This document shows, in pieces, positions 1-63,698 of a DNA stretch of 64,000 nt; position 1 is the first letter of the stretch; each line of letters starts with the position of its first letter. Made by a program: the position numbers and the translations under genes. Below the pieces are notes generated by a model. The model searched no databases. It worked only from the letters and a program-made list of their open reading frames with translations, and had not been told where the DNA came from. Location of the stretch: positions 3,612 through 67,611 of the forward strand of contig MFTQ01000004.1 of the NCBI GenBank assembly GCA_001785355.1, written 5' to 3'. The DNA comes from Candidatus Nomurabacteria bacterium RIFCSPHIGHO2_01_FULL_41_71. GTDB taxonomy: Bacteria > Patescibacteriota > Minisyncoccia > Phycocordibacterales > UBA9973.

Positions 1-887
1 ATGTTCGTCTGGAGGAAGGTGGAGCCATGGATTATACCGTTGTTGTTTCCGCTGGAGCATCAGAGTCAGCTGCTCTTTCTTACGTAGCGCCATATGCAGG
101 AGTATCCATTGCGGAATATTTTATGGATAAGGGAAAAGATGTGTTGATTATCTACGACGACCTGTCGAAACATGCGGTAGCTTACAGAGAAATATCCCTC
201 CTTCTCCGTCGTCCGCCTGGCCGAGAAGCCTTTCCGGGAGATGTTTTTTATCTTCATTCTCGCCTGCTTGAGCGCGCTTGCCGAAGAAACCAAAAATACG
301 GGGGTGGGTCTATCACTGCGCTTCCCATTATTGAAACTCAAGCGGGAGATATTTCGGCCTATATTCCAACCAATGTAATTTCCATTACCGACGGGCAAAT
401 ATTTCTAGAGACCGATCTTTTCTATAAAGGTATTCGTCCGGCGGTAAATGTCGGCTCTTCCGTTTCCCGTGTAGGTTCTGCCGCCCAGATCAAGGCTATG
501 AAGAAAGTGGCAGGCACTTTGAAGCTCGATCTCGCGCAATACCGGGAGCTCGAAGCTTTCTCTCAGTTTGGTTCTGATTTGGATGAAGCAACCAAGCGGA
601 CCCTCGAGCGTGGCAAAAGGGCGGTGGAGGTATTGAAACAACCCCAATATTCTCCGGAAAAGACAGAACATCAAGTGGTATCCCTTTACGCGCTTTCCAA
701 AGGGTTTATGGATGATGTTCCGGTGAATAAGATAAAAGAATTTGAGCGCGGACTTATCGACCATGCGGAACGTCATGCGAAGGCTTTCTTTAAAGATATT
801 GCGGAAACAAAGATGTGGAGTGAAAAAGGCGAAATTGAGTTAAAGAAAGTAATTGAAGATTTCAAAAAAGGTTTTAGTAACACTTAG
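1..887 (+). CDS. atpA: ATP synthase F1 alpha subunit, C-terminal part (5' end outside window)
   Basis: ORF open from the window start. The sequence (…[47 protein letters not shown]…) is a typical F1 alpha C-terminal region. atpG, atpD and atpC follow. The TAG stop (885-887) lies inside the 23-bp palindrome. Confidence 0.9.
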
Positions 888-904
888 TACTCCGAGTACT
901 AAGT
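882..904. repeat. 23-bp perfect palindrome ACTTAGTACTCCGAGTACTAAGT, copy 1, overlapping the atpA stop codon
   Basis: Read directly. The left arm ACTTAGTACTC is the reverse complement of the right arm GAGTACTAAGT around a central C. An identical copy lies at 27346..27368. Confidence 0.85.
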
Positions 905-921
905 GGTTTAAGGCGAATTTT

Positions 922-3677: not shown

Positions 3678-4351
3678 GTAAATTTTATGTTGTCGCAACT
3701 CCGATAGGAAACCTGGGAGACATTACCTTTCGGGCCGTTGAGACGTTAAAGAGCGTAGATTTGATATTATGCGAGGATACACGAGAGACTAAAAAAATTT
3801 TAAATAAATATAATATCAATACATCCATGATGAGCTATCATACTCACAGCAAACTCGCCAAAACAGATAAGATTTTTGAATTGTTATCCGAGGGGAAAAA
3901 TTTGGCTCTGGTTTCGGACGCGGGCACTCCCGGCATTTCTGATCCGGGGGCGATGCTTGTTTCCAAAATCAAAGATAATCTACGCCATAGCGTAGATGTA
4001 ATTCCAGTGCCGGGGCCGACCGCGCTTATCACGGCGCTTTCGGCTTCGGGACTGCCGACGCATGAATTTACGTTCTTGGGTTTTTTGCCGCACAAGAAAG
4101 GGAGAGAAACATTGTTTAAGGAAATAGCGCAATCCGGAAGGACTATGGTTTTTTATGAATCTCCCCATCGGATTTTAAAAACTCTGGAATCTCTCAGAAA
4201 ATTTTGCCCAAATAAGAAAGTGTGTTTGGCCCGAGAACTCACCAAGATTTATGAAGAATTCAAAACTGACCCTCCGGTCGAACTTTTAGAATATTTAAAA
4301 GAAAATCCAAAAAAACAGAAAGGGGAGTTTACCGTGCTGATTAGCGATTGA
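3674..4351 (+). CDS. rsmI: 16S rRNA (cytidine1402-2'-O)-methyltransferase, tetrapyrrole-methylase fold
   Basis: YVVATPIGNLGDITFRAVETLKSVDLILCEDTRETKKIL is the RsmI signature. There is an ATGA overlap with atpC. Confidence 0.85.
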   Translation: MSKFYVVATPIGNLGDITFRAVETLKSVDLILCEDTRETKKILNKYNINTSMMSYHTHSKLAKTDKIFELLSEGKNLALVSDAGTPGISDPGAMLVSKIKDNLRHSVDVIPVPGPTALITALSASGLPTHEFTFLGFLPHKKGRETLFKEIAQSGRTMVFYESPHRILKTLESLRKFCPNKKVCLARELTKIYEEFKTDPPVELLEYLKENPKKQKGEFTVLISD

Positions 4352-7496: not shown

Positions 7497-8216
7497 ATGT
7501 TTTCAAATCATTTTGATTCGAATAATCTTCATCACGCGTATTTGATAGAAGGAGAAAGAATGAAAGCGTTATCGGAAATAATGCGATTTTTAGAAAGTAT
7601 CGACATTAAAACTTCCGGCAATGCCGACTTTTCTCTCATTTCTCTGGATTCTTTCAGTGTGGAAAATGCCAGAAATTTAAAATCTTTAAGCGTCGAAAAA
7701 AGCTTCTCCTCCAGTTTATCCGCGCAAGCAAATAAAAGAATTTTTATAATTTCAACCAATAATTTTCTTCTGGAAGCTCAAAACACTCTTCTGAAAATGT
7801 TTGAAGAGCCCATAGAAGACGTTATTTTTTTTCTGATAGTGCCGGACAAGAATGCTCTGCTTAAGACCCTTGCCTCCAGATTTTATGTGATTTCCTTGGA
7901 GCGGGCTTTGGGAGAGGAGGCGGAAATGGCAGATAAATTTTTAAATATGAGTTTACAAAAGAGGGTTGATTTTATAAAAGACCTTCTGATTGAAAACGAA
8001 GGGGAAGAAGAGGAGTTGGAAAAATCTGTCAGATTAAAGGCATTAAAATTTTTAAACGCCCTTGAACATATACTCCACAAAAAGTTAGTGTCAAGGACGG
8101 TCCTTGACATAGGTGTTTTTGAACATTTTTTCAAAGTTAGGAAATTTTTGCGTATGCCCGGGTCTTCTACCAAGAGTCTAATGGAATCCGTGGCGTTTTT
8201 AACTCCGAATTTATGA
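7497..8216 (+). CDS. holB: DNA polymerase III delta'-like clamp-loader subunit (no P-loop)
   Basis: HHAYLIEGE, followed by …NTLLKMFEEP…ASRF…, resembles delta prime. No Walker A is present. Confidence 0.45.
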   Translation: MFSNHFDSNNLHHAYLIEGERMKALSEIMRFLESIDIKTSGNADFSLISLDSFSVENARNLKSLSVEKSFSSSLSAQANKRIFIISTNNFLLEAQNTLLKMFEEPIEDVIFFLIVPDKNALLKTLASRFYVISLERALGEEAEMADKFLNMSLQKRVDFIKDLLIENEGEEEELEKSVRLKALKFLNALEHILHKKLVSRTVLDIGVFEHFFKVRKFLRMPGSSTKSLMESVAFLTPNL

Positions 8217-8231
8217 TATACTCAATCTTAT

Positions 8232-8783
8232 ATGCAATACAACTTTTCTAATTTCAAGGCAGGACTTAAGAAAGTGGAAGAATTCTTGAGCAAGGAATAT
8301 CGAGAGCTGAATGTCGGCCGAGCTTCTCCCTCTGTGCTTGACGGTGTATCTGTGGAATCATACGGTTCATTTATGCCCATAAAAAATCTTGCTTCTATTT
8401 CCATTGAAGATCCAAAAACTCTGCGCATAGCGCCTTGGGACAAGAGTCAAGTGAAGGATATCGAGAAAGCGATAGTTGTTTCAAATCTAGGGCTATCGGT
8501 AGCTACCGATGAAGTCGGCATCAGGGTAATATTTCCTCAATTAACTACCGAGACCAGACAGAAACTGGTAAAAGTCTTAAAAGAAAAGCTCGAAGAAAGC
8601 AGAATTACCGTGCGTAAAGAGCGTGAGCGGATATGGGACGAGGTGCAGAAACTAGAACGTGAAGGAAAAATGACCGAAGATGAAAAATTTCGAGCGAAAG
8701 AGGAGCTTCAGAAAATAATCGATGAAATTAATAAAAATCTGGGAAATGCTTTTGAAAAGAAAGAACGTGAAGTGATGGGATGA
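8232..8783 (+). CDS. frr: ribosome recycling factor
   Basis: 183 aa with an RRF-like N-terminus (MQYNFSNFKAGLKKVEE…GRASPSVLDGV). The mid-region VSNLGLSVATDEVGIRVIFPQLTTETRQKLVKV matches RRF. Confidence 0.9.
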   Translation: MQYNFSNFKAGLKKVEEFLSKEYRELNVGRASPSVLDGVSVESYGSFMPIKNLASISIEDPKTLRIAPWDKSQVKDIEKAIVVSNLGLSVATDEVGIRVIFPQLTTETRQKLVKVLKEKLEESRITVRKERERIWDEVQKLEREGKMTEDEKFRAKEELQKIIDEINKNLGNAFEKKEREVMG

Positions 8784-9907
8784 ATATTTTAATTTTTTTT
8801 ATAATTTTGTTAATTTTGGTGTTGGTCCATGAGTTTGGGCATTTTTTTGCGGCGAAGAAATTCGGCATACGAGTGGATGAATTTGGATTCGGCTTTCCGC
8901 CTAAATTGTTCGGGATTAAAAAAGGAGAAACAGAATATACTTTTAATTTGTTTCCAATTGGCGGATTTGTAAAAATTTTCGGTGAAAATCCAAATGAAGC
9001 AGAAGACTTGGAGGCCTTGCCTCCACTTGGAGGCAAGGCCTCCAAGTCGGGGAGTTTTTCTTTCAAGCCTAAATGGCAACAAGCTGTGGTTTTATCTGCC
9101 GGAATCTTGGCCAACTTTCTTCTTGCCTTTCTTCTTTTTTCTTATGCTTTTATTTCTGGTTTGCCCGTGGCGGCTGACGAAGGATTTGCCGGATATATAC
9201 CCAAGGATGTAAATACGGTAATTATTTCCGTAATTCCCGGTTTACCGGCCGCAAACGCTGATCTTAGGCCGGGAGACAAGATAATTTCAATGAAAAACAG
9301 CAGAGAAACCCTAACCTTAATCAATCCGGATAAAATTAAAATTTTTATTATTTCAAGTATCGGAGATGAAATAGAAATCGGTTTTGTGCGAAGTTCTAAA
9401 ACAAATAAATTACTTTTTACCAAGGTGATTCCCATTGTTTCCGGGCCAAACGAAGATCCGGTGGTCGGTATTAGTATGGATCAGATAGGCATAGTTAAAT
9501 TACCGATATGGCTTGCTTTGCCTGAGGGTATGAAAATGACGACATCCGCCATCAAAGAGACTGTTGTTGGGCTCTTTAAGCTTGCCAAAGAAAGTCTAAT
9601 GGGAAATGGCAGTTTAGATAATGTAGCCGGTCCGGTGGGGCTGGTCGGCATGGTGGGAGAAGTTTATGGTTTCGGTTTTTCTTATCTTATTTCTTTTACG
9701 GCTTTGATTTCTATTAATTTAGGCATTATAAACTTGGTTCCTTTTCCCGCGCTTGACGGAGGTAGGCTATTTTTTCTTCTGATTGAGAAGATAAAAGGTT
9801 CGCGTATTAATCGTAAATTTTTCAATATTGCAAACATGACGGGCTTCGCTATATTAATCTTATTCATGTTGGCGGTGACTTATAAGGACATAACGAAATT
9901 GTTTTAA
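8780..9907 (+). CDS. rseP: RseP-family site-2 zinc metalloprotease
   Basis: HEFGHFFAAKKFG (HExxH) and a C-terminal LDGG motif, with multiple TM segments. It carries the 40-bp palindromic element in-frame. Confidence 0.8.
   Translation: MNILIFFIILLILVLVHEFGHFFAAKKFGIRVDEFGFGFPPKLFGIKKGETEYTFNLFPIGGFVKIFGENPNEAEDLEALPPLGGKASKSGSFSFKPKWQQAVVLSAGILANFLLAFLLFSYAFISGLPVAADEGFAGYIPKDVNTVIISVIPGLPAANADLRPGDKIISMKNSRETLTLINPDKIKIFIISSIGDEIEIGFVRSSKTNKLLFTKVIPIVSGPNEDPVVGISMDQIGIVKLPIWLALPEGMKMTTSAIKETVVGLFKLAKESLMGNGSLDNVAGPVGLVGMVGEVYGFGFSYLISFTALISINLGIINLVPFPALDGGRLFFLLIEKIKGSRINRKFFNIANMTGFAILILFMLAVTYKDITKLF
9007..9046. repeat. 40-bp nested palindromic element, copy 1, in-frame within rseP
   Basis: CTTGGAGGCCTTGCCTCC-ACTT-GGAGGCAAGGCCTCCAAG has 18-bp arms that are reverse complements, and each arm is itself a GGAGGC/GCCTCC hairpin. 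It encodes LEALPPLGGKASK. Confidence 0.85.
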
Positions 9908-18521: not shown

Positions 18522-18732
18522 CCGGATAGAAGTTTCTAAAAGTAAAACAATCCGCACTAACCGGACTGGAGGAGAATTTGAACGTGAAATGGATCGACGA
18601 ATCACTGCAATTGGTGTCACTGATGCCTTTGCTGAACCTAGACAGTTCTCATTCAATCCGAACTATAATTTAAAAGACATGGACGTAATATGGGAGAAAA
18701 AAAAAGTATAGAGAATTATTTCTTTTAAAATG

Positions 18733-18848
18733 TGCTAAAATAAGGCTTGTTTATTAGATTAAGCAATCAAATTAAATCCTTCAAAAACACTATTCCACTT
18801 AAGAATCATTGTTTGTATAGTGTTCCACTCCAGGATTTGAAAGCCCGC
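18733..18848 (+). repeat. 116-bp direct repeat copy R1 (candidate structured sRNA)
   Basis: Aligns without gaps to 19843..19958 at 98/116 identity. It starts with TGCTAAAAT and contains the AACACTAT…ATAGTGTT hairpin. Confidence 0.7.
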
Positions 18849-19639: not shown

Positions 19640-19842
19640 ATGTCCCCCGTTACGCGGCTGTGCCCTATGGTCTGGCTTAATTGCCAGAGCTGTGAGCTGT
19701 ACCGCCGCATTCGAGCATTACTTTAACATACCTTTCAAATAAATCAAGGCCATAAGGTAATGTGAAAGCGGGCTTTCCATTTTTACTTTCTGTTCTATGA
19801 CTCAATAGTTAACCCCTTTAATTTTTAAAGGTAATTAAAGTA

Positions 19843-19958
19843 TGCTAAAATAAGGCTGGTTTATTAGATTAATTTACCAGATTAAAACCCTGGAAAACAC
19901 TATTCCATTTTATAACCATATTTTCTATAGTGTTCCAGTCCAGGATTTGAAAGCCCGC
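19843..19958 (+). repeat. 116-bp direct repeat copy R2
   Basis: 84% identical to R1. Substitutions at positions 48, 50, 51 and 96 create a CTGG/CCAG helix that R1 lacks. Confidence 0.7.
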
Positions 19959-24813: not shown

Positions 24814-27051
24814 ATGAAAAATAATTACCAAGATCATAAGGAAACAGAAGAAATAATATATACCTGCCCAATGCACCCGGAAGTAATCAAGAACATTCCT
24901 GGCTCATGCCCAAAGTGTGGCATGAGACTTGTGAAGACTGAAGCAAAAACACGCAATAGTGATCATGCTGGTCATGTAATGGGTGATCCATCAAAAATGG
25001 GTTTCTGGGAGAAATTTAAAATGAGCATGTCGATGACAATGGGTATGGATCATACAGGACTTGCCGGTCGGGAAATGGCGCGTCTCATGGAGATAGATAT
25101 TCGGAATAAATTCTTCTTCACGCTTATTCTTACAATTCCTATTATTTTGTATTCACCTCTAGGCACGGAGTTTCTGAAAATTAATCTTCCTTTCCCAATA
25201 CCACTTCCCTGGCTCCTCTTTATTTTAACAACACCGGTATTTTTCTATTCTGGTTGGATTTTTCTATATTCAACATACTTTGCTCTCAAAAGTAAGGTGC
25301 TCAATATGGCGGTGCTCATTGCCGTCGGTATTACCGCGGCTTATGGCTTCAGCATTTTATTAACCCTGATCGGTAGTGCCGATTCATATTACGAAGCGGC
25401 CGCTATGCTTATTACTTTTGTCTTGTTTGGTCACTGGATGGAGATGAAATCTCGTCGCGGAACAACCGACGCTCTCCAAGCACTTTTCAATCTCGTCCCG
25501 CCTCAAGCCAGAATTTTTAAAGATGGGAAGGAAGTAATGGTTTCCACTTCAGATATACAACTTGGCGACATTATTATATTGAAGCCGGGAGACAAGGTTC
25601 CTGTCGATGGAGAAATTACCGAAGGGGAAACCGCCATAGATGAATCTTTGGTTACTGGGGAATCAATTCCTACTTCAAAAAAGATTGGGGATCAAGTAAT
25701 TGGCGGATCAATCAACACTGCCGGATCGGTGAAATTTAAGGCGACAAAAGTCGGCAAAGACACCGCTCTTGCACGAATTGTGGCGATGGTTGAAGAAGCG
25801 CAGAATTCAAAAGCCCCTGGACAAAGAATTGCTGATCAGTTTGCAAAATATTTAGTTATTGGGGCAGTCGGATCTGGTCTTTTAGTTTTTGGTGTTTGGT
25901 ATTTTATTATGGGGGTACCGATTATTCTAGCACTCTCCTTTGCGATCGCTACGGTTGTCATTGCCTGTCCCGATGCGTTAGGACTTGCTACACCGACTGC
26001 TGTGGCTGTCGGCACAGGCCTCGGAGCAAAACATAATATTCTTATAAAAGATGCACCAACTCTTGAACAAGTTTCAAAAATCCAAGCCATTGTGCTCGAT
26101 AAAACAGGAACTCTAACTGAAGGAAAGCCGAAAATAATAGATGTTGCTACCGTAGATGGTTTTGATGCAAGCGAAGCACTTCGTCTAGTCGGTGCGGCTG
26201 AAGCTAAGTCATCCCACCCTTTGGCTGGTGCGGTACTCAATGAACTTAAAAAACGTGGCCTTACATTGCCAGAGTCGGTTGATAAATTTGAAAATCTTTC
26301 TGGCTTGGGGGTGAAAGCTATCGTAGATGGAAAACAAGTTCTGATAGGTACAGTGAAGCTCATGAAAGAAAACAACATTGTTCTCGGGGCATTAAAGAAA
26401 CAAATAAATGAGTTTCTGGAAAAAGGGGAAACGATCATGATTCTTGCGGTTGACGGCGCTGTCAAAGCTGTAATCGGTGCGGCTGATCCAATAAAACCTA
26501 CCGCTGTAAAAACGGTTGAACGATTGAAGGCTTTGGGTATTGAAATTGCCATGATCACGGGCGACAATAAAATGACCGCAGAAAAAGTAGCCAGTCAAAT
26601 TGGCATCGAAAGAGTGTTTGCTGAAGTAATGCCTGCAGACAAAGCAAGCTATGTAAAAAAGTTACAACAGGAAGGAAAATTCACGGCCATGGTCGGAGAT
26701 GGAGTTAACGACGCACCCGCGCTCGCTCAATCTGATGTGGGCATTGCCATTGGTGCAGGCACGGACGTAGCTATAGAGACCGCAAAAGTCGTGTTGATGA
26801 AATCTGACCCGTTAGATATACTGCGAGCAATAACCTTGAGCAAGGCAACAGTTCGCAAAATGAAACAAAATCTTTTCTGGGCTTCAATTTATAATGTTCT
26901 AGCGATACCAGTTGCCGGTGGAATTCTGTATCCTAGCTTCGGTATTATGCTTCGTCCGGAATTTGCGGCACTCCTTATGAGTATTTCTTCAATAATCGTT
27001 GCAACAAATGCAGTATTATTAAAAAGAGTCGAGAAAGATTTAGTAGTATAA
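24814..27051 (+). CDS. copA: copper-translocating P1B-type ATPase
   Basis: N-terminal TCPMHPEV…CPKCGM metal-binding domain and a Met-rich MSMSMTMGM stretch. The other motifs are TGES, DKTGTLT and GDGVNDAPAL. The TM6 motif reads CPD where CPC is usual. Confidence 0.9.
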   Translation: MKNNYQDHKETEEIIYTCPMHPEVIKNIPGSCPKCGMRLVKTEAKTRNSDHAGHVMGDPSKMGFWEKFKMSMSMTMGMDHTGLAGREMARLMEIDIRNKFFFTLILTIPIILYSPLGTEFLKINLPFPIPLPWLLFILTTPVFFYSGWIFLYSTYFALKSKVLNMAVLIAVGITAAYGFSILLTLIGSADSYYEAAAMLITFVLFGHWMEMKSRRGTTDALQALFNLVPPQARIFKDGKEVMVSTSDIQLGDIIILKPGDKVPVDGEITEGETAIDESLVTGESIPTSKKIGDQVIGGSINTAGSVKFKATKVGKDTALARIVAMVEEAQNSKAPGQRIADQFAKYLVIGAVGSGLLVFGVWYFIMGVPIILALSFAIATVVIACPDALGLATPTAVAVGTGLGAKHNILIKDAPTLEQVSKIQAIVLDKTGTLTEGKPKIIDVATVDGFDASEALRLVGAAEAKSSHPLAGAVLNELKKRGLTLPESVDKFENLSGLGVKAIVDGKQVLIGTVKLMKENNIVLGALKKQINEFLEKGETIMILAVDGAVKAVIGAADPIKPTAVKTVERLKALGIEIAMITGDNKMTAEKVASQIGIERVFAEVMPADKASYVKKLQQEGKFTAMVGDGVNDAPALAQSDVGIAIGAGTDVAIETAKVVLMKSDPLDILRAITLSKATVRKMKQNLFWASIYNVLAIPVAGGILYPSFGIMLRPEFAALLMSISSIIVATNAVLLKRVEKDLVV

Positions 27052-27888
27052 AGTTTTTTTAAAATAAATTTTTTTAGACGCATCAAACCATTTGATATCT
27101 TTATCGCGTTTAAACCAGGTCATCTGACGCTTGGCATATTTGATAGTTTCCGTTATTACTTTTTCAGGAGTTGGATGAAAATATTCAAAGCCAAGTTCTC
27201 GTAGTCTATTTTCCGAAACGCCCGATTTCTTTAACTTTTCGATTTCTTTTAAAAGTCCCGTTTTAAACATTTTTTTTACACGTTTTTCCACCTTCTCTTT
27301 TAATTTTTCTGGAGGCAGATATAATCCAATTTTGATAAATTTATAACTTAGTACTCCGAGTACTAAGTGGGGGACTTTACCTAAGGCTTTGGCTATTTCA
27401 ATTGCCCTGATCAATCTGACTTTATTTTTTGGATCTATATTTTTTGCTCTATTTTTGTCTAACTTTATCAATATACGAAATAATACGGTCGCACTTTTTT
27501 GTGCCAATTTGCGGCGTAATTTTTTATCAAGAGGAACTGAGGGAAATTTTAATCCTTTTGTTACCGCATCGATATAGAATCCGGTACCACCGCAGATGAT
27601 CGGAATTTTACCTCGGCTGACAATCTCCGCCATAGCGGAGATTGTCAGCTTTTGATATTTTTCAACTGAAAATTTATTTTTCGGACTAATCACATTTAAC
27701 AAATGATGGGGTGTCCCCATCATTTGTTTTTTGGTAATTTTACCGGTACCAATATCGAGCCCCTTATAGACTTGTCTCGAATCGGCCGAAATTATTTCGC
27801 CACCGATTTTTCCGGCAATTTTCACCGCTAAATCACTTTTACCAGTGGCGGTTTGGCCTAAAATGACGATTACTTTCGGTTTTTTCAT
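27040..27888 (-). CDS. miaA: tRNA dimethylallyltransferase
   Basis: P-loop ILGQTATGKS and ADSRQVYKGLDIGT. It carries the 23-bp palindrome in-frame. Confidence 0.85.
   Translation of the reverse strand: MKKPKVIVILGQTATGKSDLAVKIAGKIGGEIISADSRQVYKGLDIGTGKITKKQMMGTPHHLLNVISPKNKFSVEKYQKLTISAMAEIVSRGKIPIICGGTGFYIDAVTKGLKFPSVPLDKKLRRKLAQKSATVLFRILIKLDKNRAKNIDPKNKVRLIRAIEIAKALGKVPHLVLGVLSYKFIKIGLYLPPEKLKEKVEKRVKKMFKTGLLKEIEKLKKSGVSENRLRELGFEYFHPTPEKVITETIKYAKRQMTWFKRDKDIKWFDASKKIYFKKTLYY
27346..27368. repeat. 23-bp perfect palindrome, copy 2, in-frame within miaA (encodes HLVLGVLS)
   Basis: Identical to 882..904. Translated on the minus strand in the miaA frame: CCC CAC TTA GTA CTC GGA GTA CTA AGT. 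Confidence 0.85.
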
Positions 27889-31902: not shown

Positions 31903-32403
31903 ATGAATTTTGAGTATGGCACGACTCGCTTCGTCTTCTGTGTGGGGGGCGTAGCGATGAAAGTCGCCCGGGTAAAAGTAATTTACTGGGCGAAAAGGGT
32001 AATCGAGAAAATATTCGTGGCGCAACATGCCACGAATATTTTAAGAGGGGGAAATCCTCAACCGTTTGCTCGGTTGAGGCATTTGTTCGCCGGCGTAACG
32101 GCGAACCTGGAGGAAGGGCGGATGTATGCCCGCTATCCAGAGCTTCCTCTGGCCCCCACCCTTTTTTCGTTCTTCGGACTTGTGAATATCCAAGTCCGAG
32201 GAACACCGATCGGAAAGGACGAGCTCGTGCTTTGTCCTTTCCGGGACCTTGCTGACATCGAGTCGGCAGGGATTGACCTCAACAAGGCCGAGAATTTTGG
32301 CCGAATTGATGGTCGAATTGTGCTCCTCGATTGCGGGTTCGAGGGGCTCAACAAAATTTTGGCGAGATACGCGGAATCTCGCCAGATTGTTTACGATTTT
32401 TAA
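31903..32403 (+). CDS. hypothetical protein encoded in a GC-rich (~50%) patch
   Basis: 166 aa with a strong promoter and Shine-Dalgarno. No family was recognised. Confidence 0.5.
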   Translation: MNFEYGTTRFVFCVGGVAMKVARVKVIYWAKRVIEKIFVAQHATNILRGGNPQPFARLRHLFAGVTANLEEGRMYARYPELPLAPTLFSFFGLVNIQVRGTPIGKDELVLCPFRDLADIESAGIDLNKAENFGRIDGRIVLLDCGFEGLNKILARYAESRQIVYDF

Positions 32404-32446
32404 ATAGCCAGCAACACCCGAAAGGAGTATGTTCGCTGGCTATTTT
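32402..32446 (+). terminator. hairpin AAATAGCCAGC…GCTGGCTATTT plus T-run after the 31903 gene
   Basis: An 11-bp stem, a 22-nt loop and TTTTAATT. Confidence 0.4.
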
Positions 32447-32501
32447 AATTGTCTACGGAAATCAACATATGTGTTTTTCGGTAGACATTACAAAACAAAC
32501 A

Positions 32502-32541
32502 CATGTCGTGAATTTGCGCATATGCGCAAATTCACGACATG
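32502..32541. terminator. 40-bp perfect palindrome CATGTCGTGAATTTGCGCAT|ATGCGCAAATTCACGACATG between convergent genes
   Basis: Read directly. It lies 8 nt past the topA stop and is followed on the minus strand by GTTTGTTTTG. Confidence 0.4.
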
Positions 32542-37033: not shown

Positions 37034-37891
37034 ATGGCGAGAAAAGGCGTTTTAAATTCTTCCCGTCTGCGCGATCTCAAAAAAAAACGACGCATGATTT
37101 TGGGTACAAAGATTGCTCTTGCGGCTTTGGCTTTTTTGGTTTTGCTTTGGATACTTGCTTACGTTGCCAGACTTCCGGCGTTTAATATTTCTGAAATTAA
37201 AATTTCCGGAGAAAAGGCGGTGGATACAGAAAGCATAACGGAAGTAGTTGAAAAAAACTTGAAGACAAAACACCTTTGGATTTTCCCGAAGTCCAATTTT
37301 CTTCTCCTTCCGAAGAATCAAATAAAAAAAGAGCTTATGGTTGAATTTTCCAGACTTGAGAATGTTTCCTTCAATCTTCAGAATTTGCGAACCTTGCTTG
37401 TTTCGGTATCCGAAAGGGAAAACAAATATATCTGGTGCGGCGCGAATATGGAAATCGAGTTTTCTGAAAATTCAGAAAAAGGATGTTTTTTTATGGATGC
37501 GAGCGGATATGTCTTCGATCAAGCCCCGTATTTCTCCGGCGATGTGTATTTCAGATTTTTTGGCGCGCTAAAAGAAAATTATTTTTTTCCGGAAGTCTTC
37601 GGCAAATTTATATCGTTCATAGATGTTCTGCCTCGCTTTGGGTTTGTGCCGGTGTCCCTGTACTCAAAGATCGACGGCGATATAGAGATTCATCTTTCTT
37701 CGGATTCTTCATATTTAAACTCGCCAAAAATAATTTTTAAAAAAAATTCTGACTTGGAGAAAATCTCCGAAAATCTCCAAGCGGCGCTTGATACGGAACC
37801 TCTCCGTACGGAACTCAAAAACAAGTATTCTTTTCTTCAATATATTGATTTAAGATTCGGAAATAAAGTTTATTATAAATTCGATGAATGA
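37034..37891 (+). CDS. FtsQ/DivIB-like cell-division protein (POTRA)
   Basis: N-terminal TM, then FNISEIKISGEKAV…, a POTRA-like start. Confidence 0.4.
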   Translation: MARKGVLNSSRLRDLKKKRRMILGTKIALAALAFLVLLWILAYVARLPAFNISEIKISGEKAVDTESITEVVEKNLKTKHLWIFPKSNFLLLPKNQIKKELMVEFSRLENVSFNLQNLRTLLVSVSERENKYIWCGANMEIEFSENSEKGCFFMDASGYVFDQAPYFSGDVYFRFFGALKENYFFPEVFGKFISFIDVLPRFGFVPVSLYSKIDGDIEIHLSSDSSYLNSPKIIFKKNSDLEKISENLQAALDTEPLRTELKNKYSFLQYIDLRFGNKVYYKFDE

Positions 37892-38882
37892 ATTGGGATT
37901 TTGGAAAAAACTTAAAAAACCTGTTTTTTGCCTGGCGCCCATGGCGGATGTCACAGACTGCGCATTTAGGCAGATAATCGCAAAATATGGGAAGCCGGAT
38001 ATCTTTTGGACGGAGTTCGTCTCTGCCGACGGATTATGTTCTCCGGGAAAAGAAAAGATTCTTGTTGATTTAAAATACGAAGAAAACGAGCGTCCAATAG
38101 TGGCGCAAATATTCGGCGGTAAGCCTGAAAACATAAAGAAAGCAGTTTCTTTGTGCCGAAAACTTGGTTTTGACGGAGTGGACATAAATATGGGCTGTCC
38201 GGACCGCTCTGTAGAGAAGCAATACGCCGGGGCGGCCATGATGAAAAATAAAAACCTTGCCCGTGAAGTTATCAAAGCGGCCAAGGAAGGAGCTCGCGGA
38301 TTGCCGATCTCGGTAAAAACCCGCTTGGGATACAATCAGATTGATTTAGAATGGATACGCTTTCTTCTGGAAGAAGATTTAGCGGCGCTTGCCGTTCATC
38401 TACGTACTCGCAAAGAAATGTCCGATGCCCCCGCTCATTGGGAATTTATGAAAAAAATAATTCAAATTCGAGATGAAATGAAGAAGGAGACATTTATCAT
38501 CGGCAATGGCGATGTCGTAGACATAAACGACGCTAAGAAAAAATGTAAAGAAACAGGTTGCGACGGAGTGATGCTAGGTAGGGCGATATTCGGAAATCCA
38601 TGGCTATTTGTAAAATGTCAAAGAGACACTTTGACACCAGACTTGTCAAAGTGTCTCTTTGACAAGTCTATAAAAGAAAAATTAAAAGTGTTGGTGGAAC
38701 ACACGAAACTTTTTGAAAAAATGCTCGGAAAACAAAAAAATTTTGCCATTATGAAGAAACATTATAAAGCTTATGCAAATGGCTTTGACGACGCCAAGGA
38801 ACTTAGAATGAAATTAATGGAAACAGAAAACGCCGGGCAAGTGGAAACTATCGTTAATAATTTTTTTAATAAAATTACCTAA
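37884..38882 (+). CDS. dus: tRNA-dihydrouridine synthase
   Basis: LAPMADVTDCAFRQI and NMGCPD with the catalytic Cys. It carries the TGTCAAAG palindromes in-frame. Confidence 0.85.
   Translation: MNELGFWKKLKKPVFCLAPMADVTDCAFRQIIAKYGKPDIFWTEFVSADGLCSPGKEKILVDLKYEENERPIVAQIFGGKPENIKKAVSLCRKLGFDGVDINMGCPDRSVEKQYAGAAMMKNKNLAREVIKAAKEGARGLPISVKTRLGYNQIDLEWIRFLLEEDLAALAVHLRTRKEMSDAPAHWEFMKKIIQIRDEMKKETFIIGNGDVVDINDAKKKCKETGCDGVMLGRAIFGNPWLFVKCQRDTLTPDLSKCLFDKSIKEKLKVLVEHTKLFEKMLGKQKNFAIMKKHYKAYANGFDDAKELRMKLMETENAGQVETIVNNFFNKIT
38616..38664. repeat. inverted pair of 21-bp palindromes (TGTCAAAGAGACACTTTGACA / TGTCAAAGTGTCTCTTTGACA), in-frame in dus
   Basis: The two halves are exact reverse complements separated by CCAGACT. 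They encode KCQRDTLTPDLSKCLFDK. Confidence 0.8.
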
Positions 38883-40632: not shown

Positions 40633-40677
40633 GAGCCACGGTCCCGCACGCGGGACCGTGGCTCAAAATTTTTTTGA
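40633..40677. terminator. GC-rich hairpin GAGCCACGGTCCCGC/GCGGGACCGTGGCTC flanked by A- and T-runs (bidirectional)
   Basis: A 15-bp perfect inverted repeat, then AAAATTTTTTT. It lies at the convergent junction with the MazG-like gene. Confidence 0.55.
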
Positions 40678-55718: not shown

Positions 55719-56250
55719 AAAAAAATTAGTACTGATGGTTCATGAGGGAGGTAGTCACACTAATTTAAAGACAATACGAAGGGCGGTTGATGCCGGTAAA
55801 ATTAATGCGGAAATTTCCGCGGTAGTTTCTGATAAAGAGAACGCGATACCGGTATTGGAGAAAATGTCCCCGGACTATATATGTCTCGCTGGTTGGAAGA
55901 AAATTATTCCTAAAAAAATTATAAAAGAATATAAGAACAAAATCTTAAATATACATCCGGGTTTAATTCCTGATACAGTCAACGAAAAAGTGAAAAATCC
56001 TGACGACACGGAAGCTTTGTGGAATAAAGAAATGTATGGTAATAAAGCCGTTCAGAATTTTTTAGATCGGAAAGCAACTTTTGCCGGCTCTTCTATTCAT
56101 TTTTTAACCCTTGACTTTGATTTTGGGCCGGTTTTAGGGAGAACTTTTGAAAAAATTCAAATTAATGATACTGTTGAATCTCTATATGCACGGCTCAAAA
56201 AAAAAGAAAATGAGTTATATGTGGAGATTTTAGAAAAATTAACTCAATGA
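55699..56250 (+). CDS. purN: phosphoribosylglycinamide formyltransferase
   Basis: NIHPGLIP motif, within the pur operon. Confidence 0.7.
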   Translation: MMSQTSKKKLVLMVHEGGSHTNLKTIRRAVDAGKINAEISAVVSDKENAIPVLEKMSPDYICLAGWKKIIPKKIIKEYKNKILNIHPGLIPDTVNEKVKNPDDTEALWNKEMYGNKAVQNFLDRKATFAGSSIHFLTLDFDFGPVLGRTFEKIQINDTVESLYARLKKKENELYVEILEKLTQ

Positions 56251-57599
56251 AAAAACAAAAAATTTTAATAATCGGTGCGGGTGGGGGCAGGGAACATGCG
56301 ATCGGGTGGAAAATAGCGCAGTCGCCGAGAGCGGGGAAATTATTTTTTGCGCGAGGAAATGCCGGTACGGCAGAGCTTGGAACCAATCTAGAAATTAAAG
56401 AGAGGGAAATTTCAAAACTTATTGATTTCGCAAAAAACGAAAAAATAGATTTGACTTTGGTTGTAGCAGATGAGCCATTAGCACTCGGTGTCGTGGATGA
56501 ATTTAAGAAAAATAATTTGCGAGTCTGGGGCCCGACCAAGGTAGCCGCACAAATAGAATGGTCCAAAGCGTATTCCAAGAATTTTATGCGCAAACACAAT
56601 TTACCGACGGCCAGATTTGAAATATTTAGTAATTTTGAGAAGGCAAAAGCTTACTTGGAGGCAAGGCCTCCACTTGGAGGCCTTGCCTCCAAGTCCTCCC
56701 TTGTAATTAAGGCAAGCGGACTGGCGCTCGGTAAGGGAGTAGTGATAGTAAAAACACTTTCAGAATCCCTGCAAACACTTGAAGAGATGATGATAAAAAA
56801 AGTTTTTGGCGGCGCGGGCAATGAAGTGGTGATCGAAGAATTTTTGACAGGCCCGGAAATTTCCATTCATGTATTTTCCGACGGAAAAACATATAAAATA
56901 TTTCCAGCTTCTCAAGATCATAAAAAAATTGGAGAAAGAGATACGGGGCTGAACACCGGAGGAGTGGGTGTTGTTGCTCCGCTCCCTTTCATGAATAAAG
57001 AAATGATGCAAAGAATTGAAAAAGAAATTATTGCGCCTACCATAAAAAATCTCAATGCCGAAGAACCATTTGTGGGAATACTTTATCCCGGTCTTATGCT
57101 CACGCCCGACGGTCCGAAAATTCTGGAATTCAACGCGCGCTTCGGCGACCCGGAAGCGGAAGCTTATATGAGGCTTTTAGACACGGATCTGCTCGATATA
57201 GTAGACGCTTCTATTGATGGAAAATTGGAGGAAGTTGAAGTCAGATGGAAAAATAAATTTGCTTGCAATGTTGTGCTTTGCTCCGGCGGGTACCCGGGGA
57301 GTTATGAGAAGGAAAAAATAATTTCGGGGGTGTGTCAAAGAGTCTCTTTGACAAAAGATTCTATGTCAAAGAGTCTCTTTGACAATGACGACGACATCGT
57401 TATTTTTCACGCTGGCACCAAAATAAATGAGAGAGAACAATTGGTCACTAACGGCGGACGGGTGCTTGGAGTTTCGGCATTGGGAAATTCTTTAGAAGAA
57501 GCGCTAGAAAAAGCCTACAAGACTATTGAAAAAATTTCGTTCGAGGGAATGCAATATAGAAGAGATATTGGTAAAAAAGCTCTAGAAATGATAAAATAA
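56247..57599 (+). CDS. purD: phosphoribosylamine--glycine ligase
   Basis: ILIIGAGGGREHA and an ATP-grasp domain. It carries the 40-bp element and two TGTCAAAGAG palindromes in-frame. Confidence 0.85.
   Translation: MKKQKILIIGAGGGREHAIGWKIAQSPRAGKLFFARGNAGTAELGTNLEIKEREISKLIDFAKNEKIDLTLVVADEPLALGVVDEFKKNNLRVWGPTKVAAQIEWSKAYSKNFMRKHNLPTARFEIFSNFEKAKAYLEARPPLGGLASKSSLVIKASGLALGKGVVIVKTLSESLQTLEEMMIKKVFGGAGNEVVIEEFLTGPEISIHVFSDGKTYKIFPASQDHKKIGERDTGLNTGGVGVVAPLPFMNKEMMQRIEKEIIAPTIKNLNAEEPFVGILYPGLMLTPDGPKILEFNARFGDPEAEAYMRLLDTDLLDIVDASIDGKLEEVEVRWKNKFACNVVLCSGGYPGSYEKEKIISGVCQRVSLTKDSMSKSLFDNDDDIVIFHAGTKINEREQLVTNGGRVLGVSALGNSLEEALEKAYKTIEKISFEGMQYRRDIGKKALEMIK
56654..56693. repeat. 40-bp nested palindromic element, copy 2, in-frame within purD
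   Basis: CTTGGAGGCAAGGCCTCC-ACTT-GGAGGCCTTGCCTCCAAG. The inner arm loops (AAG, CTT) are swapped relative to copy 1. It encodes LEARPPLGGLASK. Confidence 0.85.
57333..57384. repeat. two direct copies of the 21-bp perfect palindrome TGTCAAAGAGTCTCTTTGACA, in-frame in purD
   Basis: Copies at 57333-57353 and 57364-57384, separated by 10 bp. They encode CQRVSLTKDSMSKSLFDN. Confidence 0.8.
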
Positions 57600-61988: not shown

Positions 61989-63698
61989 ATGATTTTGCGT
62001 AGATTCAAAAAAAATCGAATAAAAAATACCCTGGTAGATCCGGATGAGATATTTCTGGATTCTACCAATCTTCAAAATTTCGATCGTCAACAATTTGAAG
62101 GTCGAATAGAAAAACCAATTTCCAAAAAAACCGCCGCGGGATTGGGAATCTTTTTTTTAATTTTTATTTTGACTTTTCTGGGCAGATTGGGATATCTGCA
62201 AATCAAAAAAGGAGAAGCCTATTATAAAAGAAGTGAAAACAACACCCTAGAGAGAGCCATTATTTTCGCCGAAAGGGGAATAATTTACGACAGAAATAAG
62301 AAGGAACTTGCATGGAATCAAAAAATGGGGCATGAAGGGGGAGGAGGCAGTAAATTCGGCATACGCGCATATTTAAAAGATGGTTTCGCGCATCTTTTGG
62401 GTTATGTAAGCTATCCGGCGCAAGATAAATCCGGGAATTATTGGCAGGGAGAATTTAAAGGAATTGATGGACTGGAAAAACAATATGACACCATTCTTCA
62501 AGGTAAAAATGGTTCAAAAATAGTTGAAAGAGACGCTTATGGAAAAATTCATTCGGAAAATATAGTAAATGCTCCAAAAAGGGGACAAGATTTGATAACC
62601 GCCATAGATGCTTCAATACAGGCAAAATTATTTTCTCTAATTAAAGAAGCTTCCCAAAAAAGTACTTTCGTCGGCGGAGCAGGAATACTTCTTGATGCCA
62701 AAAACGGCGAAGTATTGGCCGTCACAAGTTATCCGGAATACGATCCAGAAATATTGTCTTTGGGGAAAGACACAAAGATAATAAACGGCTATCTTGCCGA
62801 TAAACGCGGAGTTTTTATAGATAGAACTATTTCCGGGTTGTATGCTCCAGGTTCGATAGTTAAACCTATTTTCGCGCTTGGCGCCCTTGTCGAAAATATT
62901 ATCAATCCTAAAAAAGAAATTCTGTCGATTGGTGAAATTTCTATACCTAATCCCTATATCAAAGGAGAATTTTCTGTTTTTAAAGATTGGAAAGCTCACG
63001 GTTGGACAAATATGCAAGAAGCTCTGGCGGTATCATCGGATGTATATTTTTATACAATCGGAGGCGGTTTTGAAAGTCAAAAAGGTCTGGGTATATCCAA
63101 TCTGGAAAAATATGCTCGGCTCTTCGGTGTCGGAGAAAAAACAGGAATAGACCTGCCAGATGAAAAAAGCGGCACTATCCCGAGTCCTGAATGGAAAGAA
63201 AAAAATTTCAAAGGAGATCCATGGCGCATCGGAGACACTTACAATACCTCTATCGGGCAGTATGGCTTCCAGGTGACTCCCATGGAAATGTCTCGGGTGG
63301 CGGCAGCTATTGCAAACGGTGGCACATTGATATCTCCCCATATTATGAACTTGGAGGCCTTGCCTCCAAGTGGAGACCTTGTCTCAAAATTAGATTTTAA
63401 CAAAGAATATTTAGATATAGTGCACGAGGGCATGAGAGGAGCGGTAACATACGGCACGGCGGTAGCGCTCAATGTGCCATATGTAAAAGTAGCGGCCAAA
63501 ACCGGAACCGCGGAACTTGGACTCGCAAAAAATAAAATTAATTCCTGGGTAATCGGATTTTTCCCATATGAAAATCCGCGATATGTATTTACAATTTTAA
63601 TGGAATCCGGACGAGCATCCGGTCTCATTAGCGCTTCTTCAATAATGCGAGACCTTTTGGACTGGATGTATATAAACACGCCGGAATACCTAAAGTAA
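61989..63698 (+). CDS. mrdA: penicillin-binding protein 2 (class B transpeptidase)
   Basis: SIVKP (SxxK), SSD (SxD) and KTGTAE. It carries a decayed copy of the 40-bp element. Confidence 0.8.
   Translation: MILRRFKKNRIKNTLVDPDEIFLDSTNLQNFDRQQFEGRIEKPISKKTAAGLGIFFLIFILTFLGRLGYLQIKKGEAYYKRSENNTLERAIIFAERGIIYDRNKKELAWNQKMGHEGGGGSKFGIRAYLKDGFAHLLGYVSYPAQDKSGNYWQGEFKGIDGLEKQYDTILQGKNGSKIVERDAYGKIHSENIVNAPKRGQDLITAIDASIQAKLFSLIKEASQKSTFVGGAGILLDAKNGEVLAVTSYPEYDPEILSLGKDTKIINGYLADKRGVFIDRTISGLYAPGSIVKPIFALGALVENIINPKKEILSIGEISIPNPYIKGEFSVFKDWKAHGWTNMQEALAVSSDVYFYTIGGGFESQKGLGISNLEKYARLFGVGEKTGIDLPDEKSGTIPSPEWKEKNFKGDPWRIGDTYNTSIGQYGFQVTPMEMSRVAAAIANGGTLISPHIMNLEALPPSGDLVSKLDFNKEYLDIVHEGMRGAVTYGTAVALNVPYVKVAAKTGTAELGLAKNKINSWVIGFFPYENPRYVFTILMESGRASGLISASSIMRDLLDWMYINTPEYLK
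63350..63385. repeat. 40-bp palindromic element, degenerate copy 3, in-frame within PBP2
   Basis: CTTGGAGGCCTTGCCTCC-AAGT-GGAGACCTTGTCTC. The left arm is intact and the right arm is decayed. It encodes LEALPPSGDLVSK. Confidence 0.65.

What the first reader, a model, noticed from the sequence alone, without database searches (positions are those of the whole stretch)
9007..9046. Family of 40-bp nested palindromic elements inserted in-frame in three unrelated housekeeping genes (rseP, purD, PBP2)
The same about 40-bp sequence occurs at 9007..9046, 56654..56693 and, decayed, at 63350..63385. Its 18-bp arms are mutual reverse complements, and each arm is itself a GGAGGC-NNN-GCCTCC hairpin. Every copy sits in the same reading frame relative to the element and adds the peptide LEA(L/R)PP(L/S)GG(K/L)ASK to the host protein. 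Because it is self-complementary, the opposite strand encodes a near-identical peptide, as in the artefactual ORFs 8728..9114(-) and 56651..56866(-). This is the behaviour described for Rickettsia palindromic elements, which are selfish mini-elements tolerated inside ORFs. As far as I know it has not been described in a Patescibacteria-like, low-GC, reduced genome. The element could equally be a recombination or hairpin-nuclease target, or an RNA-level regulatory hairpin inside mRNAs.
Basis: partly seen in the sequence, partly recalled or inferred. Interest (0 to 1): 0.8.

Follow-up and report, generated by a model that had tools for sequence, protein, structure and literature searches.

The report
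REP-type hairpin repeats inside genes
The three palindromes are real copies of a short DNA hairpin repeat that is common across Patescibacteria and sits next to its own hairpin-binding transposase gene in related genomes, so this is a REP-like selfish repeat tolerated inside protein-coding genes, in a bacterial group where I found none described.

Summary
Two perfect 42-bp palindromes (9006-9047, 56653-56694) and one decayed copy (63349-63388) lie in frame in RseP-, PurD- and PBP2-like genes of a Candidatus Nomurabacteria genome. The PurD and RseP segments are absent from about 115 of 120 orthologues each. The repeat unit is a 23-nt hairpin, ACTTGGAGGC-NNN-GCCTCCAAGT, and the window copies are overlapping doublets of it. 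A scan of species-representative genomes found the hairpin in 118 or more loci, 85 of them Patescibacteria. In 13 loci it flanks, and also sits inside, a gene of about 215 aa with a Y1_Tnp (IS200-like) domain. That protein's model best matches the E. coli REP-associated transposase (4ER8). Starting instead from the gene, about 70 of 80 metagenomic loci carry a matching hairpin upstream, downstream and inside the ORF. So this is a REP/REPIN-like family with a RAYT-like transposase. Copies in ORFs use the LGGxASK or LEAxPPS frames and almost never WRxxLQV, which points to selection on the peptide and explains the shared frame. No transposase gene lies in the window, and mobility is inferred. Intragenic REPs are already known elsewhere (Opitutus, Rickettsia). 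New here are the phylum, the ACTTGG tag and the copies inside the transposase gene.

The parts
9006..9047 (.). Family A doublet 1: ACTTGGAGGC-CTT-GCCTCCA + CTTGGAGGC-AAG-GCCTCCAAGT. It is a 42-bp palindrome with a 2-nt centre. The complete 23-nt unit is 9025-9047. It encodes residues 77-89 (LEALPPLGGKASK) of the RseP-like protein.
   Evidence: Orthologue alignment.
56653..56694 (.). Family A doublet 2, with loops swapped (AAG then CTT) and junction ACTT. The complete 23-nt unit is 56672-56694. It encodes residues 137-149 (LEARPPLGGLASK) of PurD.
   Evidence: Orthologue alignment. Structure model. Same site filled in another species (L024).
63349..63388 (.). Family A doublet 3, decayed. The unit 63349-63371 is intact (loop CTT). 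The second unit, GGAGAC-CTT-GTCTC, has a paired G>A / C>T change and a degraded 3' end. It encodes residues 455-467 (LEALPPSGDLVSK) of the PBP2-like protein.
   Evidence: Orthologue alignment.
8780..9907 (+). Host gene 1: RseP-like site-2 metalloprotease, 375 aa (orthologues are typically 366 aa).
56247..57599 (+). Host gene 2: phosphoribosylamine-glycine ligase PurD, 450 aa (orthologues are typically 427-432 aa). It also carries a second, unrelated palindrome pair at 57333-57384.
61989..63698 (+). Host gene 3: PBP2-like transpeptidase, 569 aa. The element lies in a loop of variable length.
881..905 (.). Probable second family of the same hairpin class: C-ACTTAGTACTC-C-GAGTACTAAGT-G. It lies at the end of ORF 27..887, whose stop codon is inside the hairpin.
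   Evidence: It has the same outer ACTTRG...CYAAGT form as hairpins flanking RAYT-like genes (e.g. L130, L141, L171).
27346..27368 (.). Second copy of the ACTTAGTACTC-C-GAGTACTAAGT hairpin, inside ORF 27040..27888(-).

Best explanation
The three elements are REP-type hairpin repeats, present here as overlapping REPIN-like doublets. They belong to a family that is widespread in Patescibacteria. The unit is a 23-nt hairpin, ACTTGGAGGC-NNN-GCCTCCAAGT.

In related genomes the same hairpin flanks a gene of about 215 aa for a RAYT-like, HUH/Y1 single-strand DNA transposase. Enzymes of this type bind and cut DNA hairpins. The inferred mechanism is that this enzyme recognises the hairpin on single-stranded DNA and spreads it, or keeps the copies alike, as proposed for REP/RAYT and IS200/IS605 systems. 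Inverted loops at the same site in different species would fit re-ligation or template switching at the hairpin.

These genomes have little intergenic DNA, so many copies land in genes. Such copies can persist because the stems have no stop codon in any of the six frames. Selection also appears to keep only copies in flexible surface loops and in the two mild frames, LGGxASK and LEAxPPS. For a 19-nt-offset doublet only one frame avoids WRxxLQV, and that is the frame seen in all three window copies.

Shown: the repeat, its distribution, the gene association, the enzyme fold, the loop location and the frame bias. Inferred: that the enzyme mobilises the hairpins, and how insertion happens. No transposase gene lies in this window, so these copies are non-autonomous or relics.
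For: The repeat is real and far above chance.

The segments are insertions. In PurD, about 115 of 120 orthologues lack the segment, and three carry decayed or partial versions at the same site. RseP shows the same pattern, with one decayed copy at the same site in P0256. In the PurD model the segment lies in coil between H130-139 and E152-156, with pLDDT below 50 at residues 144-148.

Distribution. 118 or more loci in species-representative genomes match the 21-mer, 85 of them Patescibacteria and spanning Paceibacteria and Saccharibacteria lineages. The stem is constant. The loop is shared within a genome and differs between genomes.

Always a hairpin. Of 242 nine-mer arms, only 7 lack a partner arm.

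Gene association. 13 hairpin loci hold a Y1_Tnp gene (27-32 bits, Pfam cut-off 23) that is flanked by and contains the hairpin. The HUH motif and the Tyr are invariant. JGI names relatives 'REP element-mobilizing transposase RayT'. The AlphaFold model (pLDDT 83) has 4ER8, the E. coli RAYT bound to a REP hairpin, as its best PDB match (E = 2.8e-4), followed by IS608 and ISDra2 TnpA.

Reciprocal test. About 70 of 80 RAYT-like loci from metagenomes carry a perfect hairpin 30-60 bp upstream and/or 5-90 bp downstream. The same hairpin also sits inside the ORF. The stem matches within a locus and varies between loci.

Frame bias. In ORFs the phases are 31 LGGxASK, 17 LEAxPPS and 3 WRxxLQV (P = 3e-6 against equal use).

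Enrichment outside ORFs. 47% of copies are in long ORFs against 75% of random positions (P = 2e-10).

Intragenic REP dimers are documented in other phyla (PMC3733652).
Against: - No RAYT-like gene is in the window or in the 10 kb beyond its PurD end, and I could not check the rest of this genome.
- The window holds only three loci in 64 kb, so a high copy number in this genome is not shown.
- The NCBIfam REP_Tyr_transpos score is only 20-24 bits against a cut-off of 80, and sequence searches of the PDB found nothing. The enzyme is therefore a distant relative of characterised RAYTs.
- The GTAG or CGTC tags of the two described REP superfamilies are absent.
- No empty-site allele was found for the RseP site in metagenomes, so recent movement is not shown.
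- The net gains (+8, +8, about +2-3 codons) are shorter than the 14-codon element, so simple insertion does not explain the junctions.
- The perfect stem conservation seen at shared sites is partly an artefact of searching with an exact pattern.
Confidence: 0.75

Rival explanations
1. The hairpin is an orphan selfish palindrome, as RPEs are usually described. It has no dedicated enzyme and spreads by recombination, gene conversion or replication template switching at hairpins. On this view the link to the Y1 transposase gene arose only because that gene is itself a favoured landing site.
For: - No transposase gene is in the window.
- The net length gains are smaller than the element.
- The empty PurD site in a relative (TAC ATT GAG GCG AGA) resembles the element arm (TAC TTG GAG GCA AGG). 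This would suit homology-assisted conversion or template switching.
- Loops invert independently at shared sites.
- The paired change in copy 3 could come from repair templated within the hairpin.
Against: - The stereotyped layout is hard to explain by chance landing. About 70 of 80 loci have a hairpin 30-60 bp upstream, 5-90 bp downstream and at two fixed internal positions.
- The stem also changes together with the gene lineage.
- The gene's fold is that of enzymes that bind exactly such hairpins.
Confidence: 0.1
2. The hairpin is mainly a host-serving DNA or RNA signal, such as a transcription terminator, an mRNA-stabilising stem, a binding site for a nucleoid or topology protein, or a paired DNA-uptake signal. 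On this view the copies inside genes are by-products.
For: - Copies are enriched outside ORFs and at gene 3' ends.
- Several intergenic copies have extended stems followed by T runs, like intrinsic terminators (e.g. L008, L045, L054, L059, L065).
- 29 of 58 non-ORF copies have a T4 run within 25 nt, against 15 of 51 copies in ORFs.
- Classical REPs are known to have been put to such uses. This is established knowledge and is summarised in PMC3733652.
Against: - A terminator or uptake role does not explain the cognate pairing with a transposase gene.
- It does not explain the 47% of copies inside ORFs. The three window copies sit in the middle of genes, where termination would be harmful.
- Single arms almost never occur alone (7 of 242), unlike uptake sequences.
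- No Rfam family matches.
- This reading is compatible with, and not exclusive of, the REP/RAYT explanation.
Confidence: 0.1
3. The shared peptide is a protein-level motif that was gained convergently or inherited. Alternatively, the repeats are assembly or sequencing artefacts.
For: All three window copies are translated in one frame, and the peptides are similar.
Against: - Orthologues lack the peptide.
- The DNA stems are identical in unrelated genes.
- Elsewhere the same DNA is read in a second frame and is often intergenic.
- The identical PurD protein, insert included, is on 23 contigs read from independent JGI and ENA assemblies, and the six loci fetched all carry the hairpin at the PurD site.
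- Elements occupy the same PurD site in a different species.
Confidence: 0.02

Closest known systems
REP / BIME / REPIN elements with REP-associated tyrosine transposases (RAYT, TnpA_REP), e.g. E. coli YafM (PDB 4ER8) and Pseudomonas fluorescens REPIN-RAYT
   Same: - The unit is a short hairpin of 20-40 nt, scattered through the genome.
- Units are often paired in inverted orientation to make a longer hairpin.
- Copies are enriched outside genes and at gene 3' ends.
- A Y1/HUH transposase gene is flanked by the cognate hairpins, and each gene lineage has its own stem variant.
- The best structural match of the enzyme model is 4ER8.
   Different: - There is no GTAG or CGTC tag. The conserved foot is ACTTGG...CCAAGT.
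- The enzyme is about 215 aa with an added C-terminal helical part (the 4ER8 chain is 165 residues). It scores far below the NCBIfam RAYT cut-off.
- The doublets are minimal, 42 bp with overlapping units and no spacer.
- Nearly half of the copies are inside ORFs.
- The hairpin also sits at two fixed positions inside the transposase ORF itself. As far as I know this has not been described for RAYT genes.
Rickettsia palindromic elements (RPE) and intragenic REPs of Opitutus terrae, Thauera and Thioalkalivibrio (Di Nocera et al. 2013, PMC3733652)
   Same: - These are palindromic repeats inserted in frame in functional genes. They add short peptides and are often present as dimers.
- They are tolerated in a reduced genome (for the literature; for this window).
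   Different: - There is no sequence relationship.
- RPE-1 is much longer than the 42-bp doublet here (about 100-150 bp, from my own knowledge).
- RPE-4 and RPE-6 belong to the CGTC-tagged REPs (PMC3733652).
- As far as I know, no partner enzyme is established for RPEs, whereas a cognate Y1 gene is evident here.
- The host phylum is different.
IS200/IS605 family insertion sequences (IS608, ISDra2) and their gene-less derivatives
   Same: - The transposase has the Y1 HUH fold.
- The gene is bracketed by hairpins that the enzyme is expected to recognise as single-stranded DNA.
   Different: - Both ends here carry the same symmetric hairpin rather than distinct left and right ends.
- The scattered copies are bare hairpins, not gene-less left-plus-right end composites.
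- The gene recurs next to gap and rpiB in several lineages. This suggests a resident gene inherited vertically, as for RAYTs, rather than a multi-copy IS.

Membership tests
REP / REPIN-RAYT system | The unit is a short (about 20-40 nt) palindrome able to form a stem-loop. | tested here: met
   The unit is 23 nt with a 10-bp stem and a 3-nt loop, -10.2 kcal/mol as DNA. The doublets fold at -24.7 to -26.5 kcal/mol.
REP / REPIN-RAYT system | The repeat occurs many times per genome. | tested here: inconclusive
   The window has three loci in 64 kb and the rest of the genome was not available. Related genomes show dense copies, for example 8 in 7 kb in L055 and several loci per MAG.
REP / REPIN-RAYT system | Copies are mostly extragenic and often lie just after genes. 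| tested here: inconclusive
   Copies are enriched outside long ORFs: 53% against 25% of random positions, P = 2e-10. But 47% are intragenic, and all three window copies are intragenic.
REP / REPIN-RAYT system | A cognate tyrosine transposase gene is flanked by the same repeats (a REPtron). | tested here: met
   This holds in related genomes. 13 hairpin loci carry the gene. About 70 of 80 gene loci carry a matching hairpin upstream and/or downstream. It is not met within the window itself.
REP / REPIN-RAYT system | The transposase has an HUH motif, a catalytic Tyr and the Y1 fold. | tested here: met
   Pfam Y1_Tnp scores 27-32 bits against a cut-off of 23. N-H-[YF]-H and Y-x-N-x-N are invariant. 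The top fold match is 4ER8, followed by IS608 and ISDra2 TnpA.
REP / REPIN-RAYT system | The protein passes the curated RAYT equivalog model (NCBIfam NF047646). | tested here: not met
   The score is 20-24 bits against a cut-off of 80. It is a distant relative, not an equivalog.
GTAG- or CGTC-tagged REP superfamilies (Di Nocera 2013) | A conserved GTAG or CGTC tetranucleotide lies at one end of the stem. | tested here: not met
   The flank and stem consensus is C-[CA]-A-CTTGGAGGC...GCCTCCAAG-T-[GT]-G, with no GTAG or CGTC.
REPIN (REP doublet forming a hairpin) | Two REP units in inverted orientation fold into one long hairpin. | tested here: met
   Copies 1 and 2 have inverted loops and a single 19-20-bp stem. 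Copy 3 has direct loops and is decayed. Unlike described REPINs, the units overlap by 4 nt with no spacer.
REP / REPIN-RAYT system | The transposase binds, cuts and mobilises the repeat. | not testable with these tools
   This needs biochemistry or population data. The one empty-site search found nothing.
Rickettsia palindromic elements (RPE) | The element matches one of the Rickettsia RPE consensus families. | not tested
   No RPE consensus sequence was available to align. The 42-bp element is much shorter than RPE-1, and its ACTTGG foot differs from the CGTC tag assigned to RPE-4/6 in PMC3733652. The host is a Nomurabacteria genome.
Rickettsia palindromic elements (RPE) | The element is inserted in frame in functional ORFs and adds a peptide in a tolerant region. 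| tested here: met
IS200/IS605 insertion sequence | The whole element (tnpA with distinct left and right hairpin ends) is present in several copies. | tested here: inconclusive
   Both ends carry the same hairpin. The gene's copy number per genome was not measured. Recurrent placement next to gap and rpiB suggests a resident gene.

The most novel reading that the evidence does not exclude
Patescibacteria may carry a distinct and ancient REP-RAYT superfamily, tagged ACTTGG...CCAAGT. In it the hairpin tip (4 bp + loop + 4 bp) would be swapped or flipped in place between copies while the outer foot stays fixed. That would keep the flanking, scattered and transposase-internal copies alike. It would also make the hairpin a reusable coding module, including inside the enzyme's own ORF, where it could act in self-regulation. 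The 80 natural pairs of enzyme and hairpin variant would then amount to a readable recognition code for HUH transposases.
Probability: 0.3. Interest if true: 0.75.

Novelty: new variant of a known kind. Interest (0 to 1): 0.55.

Why it matters
Patescibacteria have some of the smallest and most gene-dense bacterial genomes, so a persistent repeat family with its own transposase is not what genome streamlining would predict. With little intergenic DNA available, nearly half of the copies end up inside genes. That makes the selective filter on inserted peptides directly visible: only two of the three frames are used, and the modelled insert lies in a surface loop.

The many natural pairs of transposase lineage and hairpin stem give a ready data set for working out how RAYT-type enzymes recognise their hairpins, which is still unclear even for E. 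coli.

There are practical consequences too. These repeats lengthen housekeeping proteins with low-complexity loops. They create spurious antisense ORFs. They probably also break metagenome assemblies, which matters for annotating and binning these genomes.

Tried and rejected
- **PDB sequence searches.** Searching with one RAYT-like protein and with a 30-sequence profile found no transposase. Only the fold search did.
- It was rerun on database proteins only.
- **Empty-site search.** I scanned JGI metagenomes for an RseP allele without the element, using exact flanks and a gap of 0-30 nt. There were no hits. The same organism is present in JGI samples, so the element looks fixed in this population.
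- **Virus collection.** The family A hairpin has 1 hit in 2.9 million contigs, so I see no sign of spread by phages. The TGTCAAAG...CTTTGACA pattern gave 13 hits, which I judge to be near what a 16-base pattern would give by chance.
- **Rfam.** Only three tRNAs pass threshold in the window. The hairpin-rich stretch at 31.6-32.7 kb gave only sub-threshold chance-like hits.
- **Uptake-signal idea.** Rejected because single arms almost never occur alone.
- **Non-Patescibacteria hits.** They are not the same element. The Gemmatimonadota hits are one orthologous lipoprotein signal peptide (LGGCASKG). The Bacillota OH_ hits are a different local repeat.
- **Exact insertion boundaries.** I could not define them. 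A precise 42-nt excision would leave PurD 6 aa shorter than every orthologue.
- **Literature.** No paper in the library links REP or RAYT to Patescibacteria.
- **Transposase gene in this genome.** I could not establish whether one exists outside the window.
Full report

Yes. The three sequences are at the stated positions. GGAGGCNNNGCCTCC occurs exactly five times in the window, all at these sites. Shuffled sequence gave about one match even with up to two mismatches allowed. The repeat finder groups the three sites into one family. A palindrome scan shows that copies 1 and 2 are 42-bp palindromes, 9006-9047 and 56653-56694, with 20-nt arms and a 2-nt centre. As single-stranded DNA they fold at -26.5 and -24.7 kcal/mol. 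The decayed third copy (63349-63388) folds as two small hairpins at -13.6 kcal/mol. All three are far beyond shuffled controls.

All three copies are read in the same frame, giving LEALPPLGGKASK, LEARPPLGGLASK and LEALPPSGDLVSK.

**2. Anatomy**

The unit is a 23-nt hairpin, ACTTGGAGGC-NNN-GCCTCCAAGT. It is intact at 9025-9047, 56672-56694 and 63349-63371. Each window element is two units offset by 19 nt that share a 4-nt junction.

The copies differ only by inversion of the 3-nt loops (CTT or AAG) and of the junction (ACTT or AAGT). In copy 3 the second unit is direct rather than inverted. It carries a paired change, GGAGAC...GTCTC, that keeps the base pairing.

**3. Host and insertion status**

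The window comes from Candidatus Nomurabacteria bacterium RIFCSPHIGHO2_02_FULL_41_x, from Rifle groundwater. The identical PurD protein, insert included, is on 23 contigs read from independent JGI and ENA assemblies. The six fetched loci all carry the hairpin at the PurD site. An artefact is therefore excluded.

- **PurD.** About 115 of 120 orthologues lack the segment. Three carry decayed or partial versions at the same site.
- **RseP.** The pattern is the same, with one decayed copy at the same site in P0256.
- **PBP2.** The element lies in a loop of very variable length. The two closest relatives are only 2-3 residues shorter there.
- **Structure.** In an AlphaFold model of this PurD (mean pLDDT 87), the insert lies in coil between helix 130-139 and strand 152-156. 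Confidence is below 50 at residues 144-148.

One point remains unexplained. The net gain is +8 codons in PurD and in RseP, not 14. Precise removal of the 42 nt would leave PurD six residues shorter than every orthologue. The empty site of a relative reads TAC ATT GAG GCG AGA, where the element reads TAC TTG GAG GCA AGG. So either insertion came with an 18-nt loss, or a similar pre-existing sequence was overwritten.

**4. Distribution**

I scanned one genome per species with CTTGGAGGCNNNGCCTCCAAG. Of these, 85 are Patescibacteria, including Nomura-, Kaiser-, Yonath-, Taylor-, Zambryski-, Niyogi- and Vogelbacteria and Saccharibacteria.

- **Stem and loop.** The stem is constant. The loop is shared within a genome, in both orientations, but differs between genomes.
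- **Flanks.** The flanks add A/T next to the stem in 98 of 108 cases and often extend the palindrome further.
- **Paired arms.** Of 242 single arms, only 7 lack a partner, so the signal is the hairpin and not a one-sided motif.
- **Non-Patescibacteria hits.** These are a coincidental lipoprotein signal peptide in Gemmatimonadota and a different repeat in some Bacillota.
- **Viruses.** The hairpin is essentially absent from viral contigs.

**5. The partner gene**

Loci with several hairpins close together share a gene of about 215 aa. It passes the Pfam Y1_Tnp (IS200-like) threshold. It gives only a weak hit to the NCBIfam RAYT model. JGI names relatives 'REP element-mobilizing transposase RayT'. 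Thirteen of the hairpin loci carry this gene next to the hairpin, but neither the window nor its extensions do. The HUH motif and the tyrosine are invariant.

Sequence searches of the PDB failed. A structure model (pLDDT 83) has the E. coli RAYT-REP hairpin complex 4ER8 as its best match, followed by IS608 and ISDra2 transposases.

The reciprocal test started from the gene, using 80 metagenomic loci. About 70 have a perfect hairpin 30-60 bp upstream and/or 5-90 bp downstream. The same hairpin also lies inside the ORF, at about +155 to +200 and/or +420 to +500. The stem is the same within a locus and differs between loci. Its general form is ACTTGG-N4-loop-N4-CCAAGT.

This is the layout of a RAYT gene flanked by its cognate REPs, with one extra feature: copies sit inside the enzyme's own coding sequence, where they encode LGGxASK. 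One locus, L132, carries exactly the window's stem and its CTT/AAG loops. The gene lies next to gap and rpiB in several lineages. The window contains neither of those genes.

**6. Why the copies share one frame**

Of 109 Patescibacteria copies, 51 lie well inside ORFs of at least 150 aa. Among these the phases are 31 LGGxASK, 17 LEAxPPS and 3 WRxxLQV (P = 3e-6 against equal use). By symmetry, LEAxPPS and WRxxLQV are the two strands of the same placement. The bias therefore points to selection on the peptide, not to the insertion chemistry.

A doublet with a 19-nt offset has only one frame without WRxxLQV, and that is the frame seen in all three window copies. The stems contain no stop codon in any frame (read directly from the sequence).

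Copies are still depleted from ORFs: 47% are inside, against 75% of random positions (P = 2e-10). Several intergenic copies look like terminators.

**7. Conservation at shared sites**

PurD of another species (L024) has the doublet at the same site. Its flanks are 67% identical to the window's, its stems are identical, and both loops and the junction are inverted. L063 and L109 share a single hairpin at one site, with the loop inverted.

This fits turnover or flipping at the hairpin. However, these loci were found with an exact-stem pattern, so the perfect stems are partly a selection effect. Decayed copies at shared sites also exist.

**8. Comparison with what is known**

The element works like a REP/REPIN with a RAYT. 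It behaves in genes like Rickettsia RPEs and like the intragenic REPs of Opitutus terrae and other species. In those species more than half of the inserts are dimers (PMC3733652).

It differs from described systems in five ways:
- It lacks the GTAG or CGTC tags of the two described REP superfamilies.
- Its enzyme fails the curated RAYT model.
- Its doublets are minimal and overlapping.
- Nearly half of its copies are intragenic.
- It occupies fixed slots inside the transposase ORF.

I found no paper in the library that links REP or RAYT to Patescibacteria.

**9. Verdict**

This is a REP-type hairpin family with a RAYT-like partner, present here as three non-autonomous or relic doublets inside housekeeping genes. 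The repeat, the gene association, the enzyme fold and the frame bias are shown. Mobilisation by the enzyme and the insertion mechanism are inferred.

Noticed in passing
window 38616-38669; 57333-57353 and 57364-57384; 8089-8109: A second palindrome family, TGTCAAAG-N5-CTTTGACA. One doublet lies inside ORF 37884..38882. Two copies lie inside PurD, where they add 13 aa (RVSLTKDSMSKSL) in a region of model confidence below 50. A similar hairpin, TGTCAAGGACGGTCCTTGACA, lies in ORF 7497..8216. None of the 80 RAYT-like loci is flanked by this stem, so its partner, if any, is unknown.
   Followed up: partly
window, whole: The window holds 19 distinct perfect hairpins with a stem of at least 10 bp and a loop of at most 8 nt. 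Triplet-shuffled controls give 0-1. Several are inside ORFs: 27616-27649 (which shares a CGCCATAGCG centre with the weaker 8-bp-stem hairpin at 3978-3997), 27698-27728 and 53206-53230. One looks like a terminator (40633-40664).
   Followed up: partly
window 31903-32541: ORF 31903..32403 (166 aa, preceded by GGAGGAGG) contains five internal hairpins. It is followed by a 40-bp perfect palindrome at 32502-32541. No Rfam family passes threshold there.
   Followed up: partly
window 18725-18848 and 19835-19958: A 124-nt direct repeat, 84% identical, with copies 1110 nt apart. It was not examined.
   Followed up: no
L126-L205 (RAYT-like loci), e.g. L132:3001-3669, L064:80-766: The RAYT-like genes carry their own cognate hairpin at two fixed positions inside the ORF, encoding LGGxASK. 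The first site corresponds to a low-confidence loop in the model (residues 57-63). The internal copies change together with the flanking copies, which implies that the copies in a locus are kept alike. As far as I know this has not been described for RAYT genes.
   Followed up: partly
L132, L064, L143, L183, L156, L157, L130: The RAYT-like gene recurs next to gap (GAPDH), and often rpiB, in several lineages. This suggests a resident, vertically inherited gene rather than a roaming insertion sequence.
   Followed up: partly
PurD orthologues P0002-P0120: About a third of the 120 PurD orthologues carry their own lineage-specific inserts of 5-36 aa, many rich in G, P, S, A, R and L. Examples are YPLGGGGNASTPSRKRATPQEG and AEGGSASGGT. 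Other GC-rich repeats may be inserted in frame across this group.
   Followed up: no
L125:1001-2299 (PurD of a relative, empty site): The empty PurD site reads TAC ATT GAG GCG AGA, where the element's first arm reads TAC TTG GAG GCA AGG. Aligned base by base, with no codon register, ACATTGAGGCGAG matches ACTTGGAGGCAAG at 10 of 13 positions. This hints at targeting or conversion guided by similarity.
   Followed up: partly
L041, L043, L067, L076, L079, L086, L095 (Bacillota OH_ MAGs): These loci hold a different local repeat. The same 21-mer is followed by a second hairpin, CCACCGCTCAAGGGA...TCCCTTGAGCGGTGG. It is unrelated to the Patescibacteria context.
   Followed up: no
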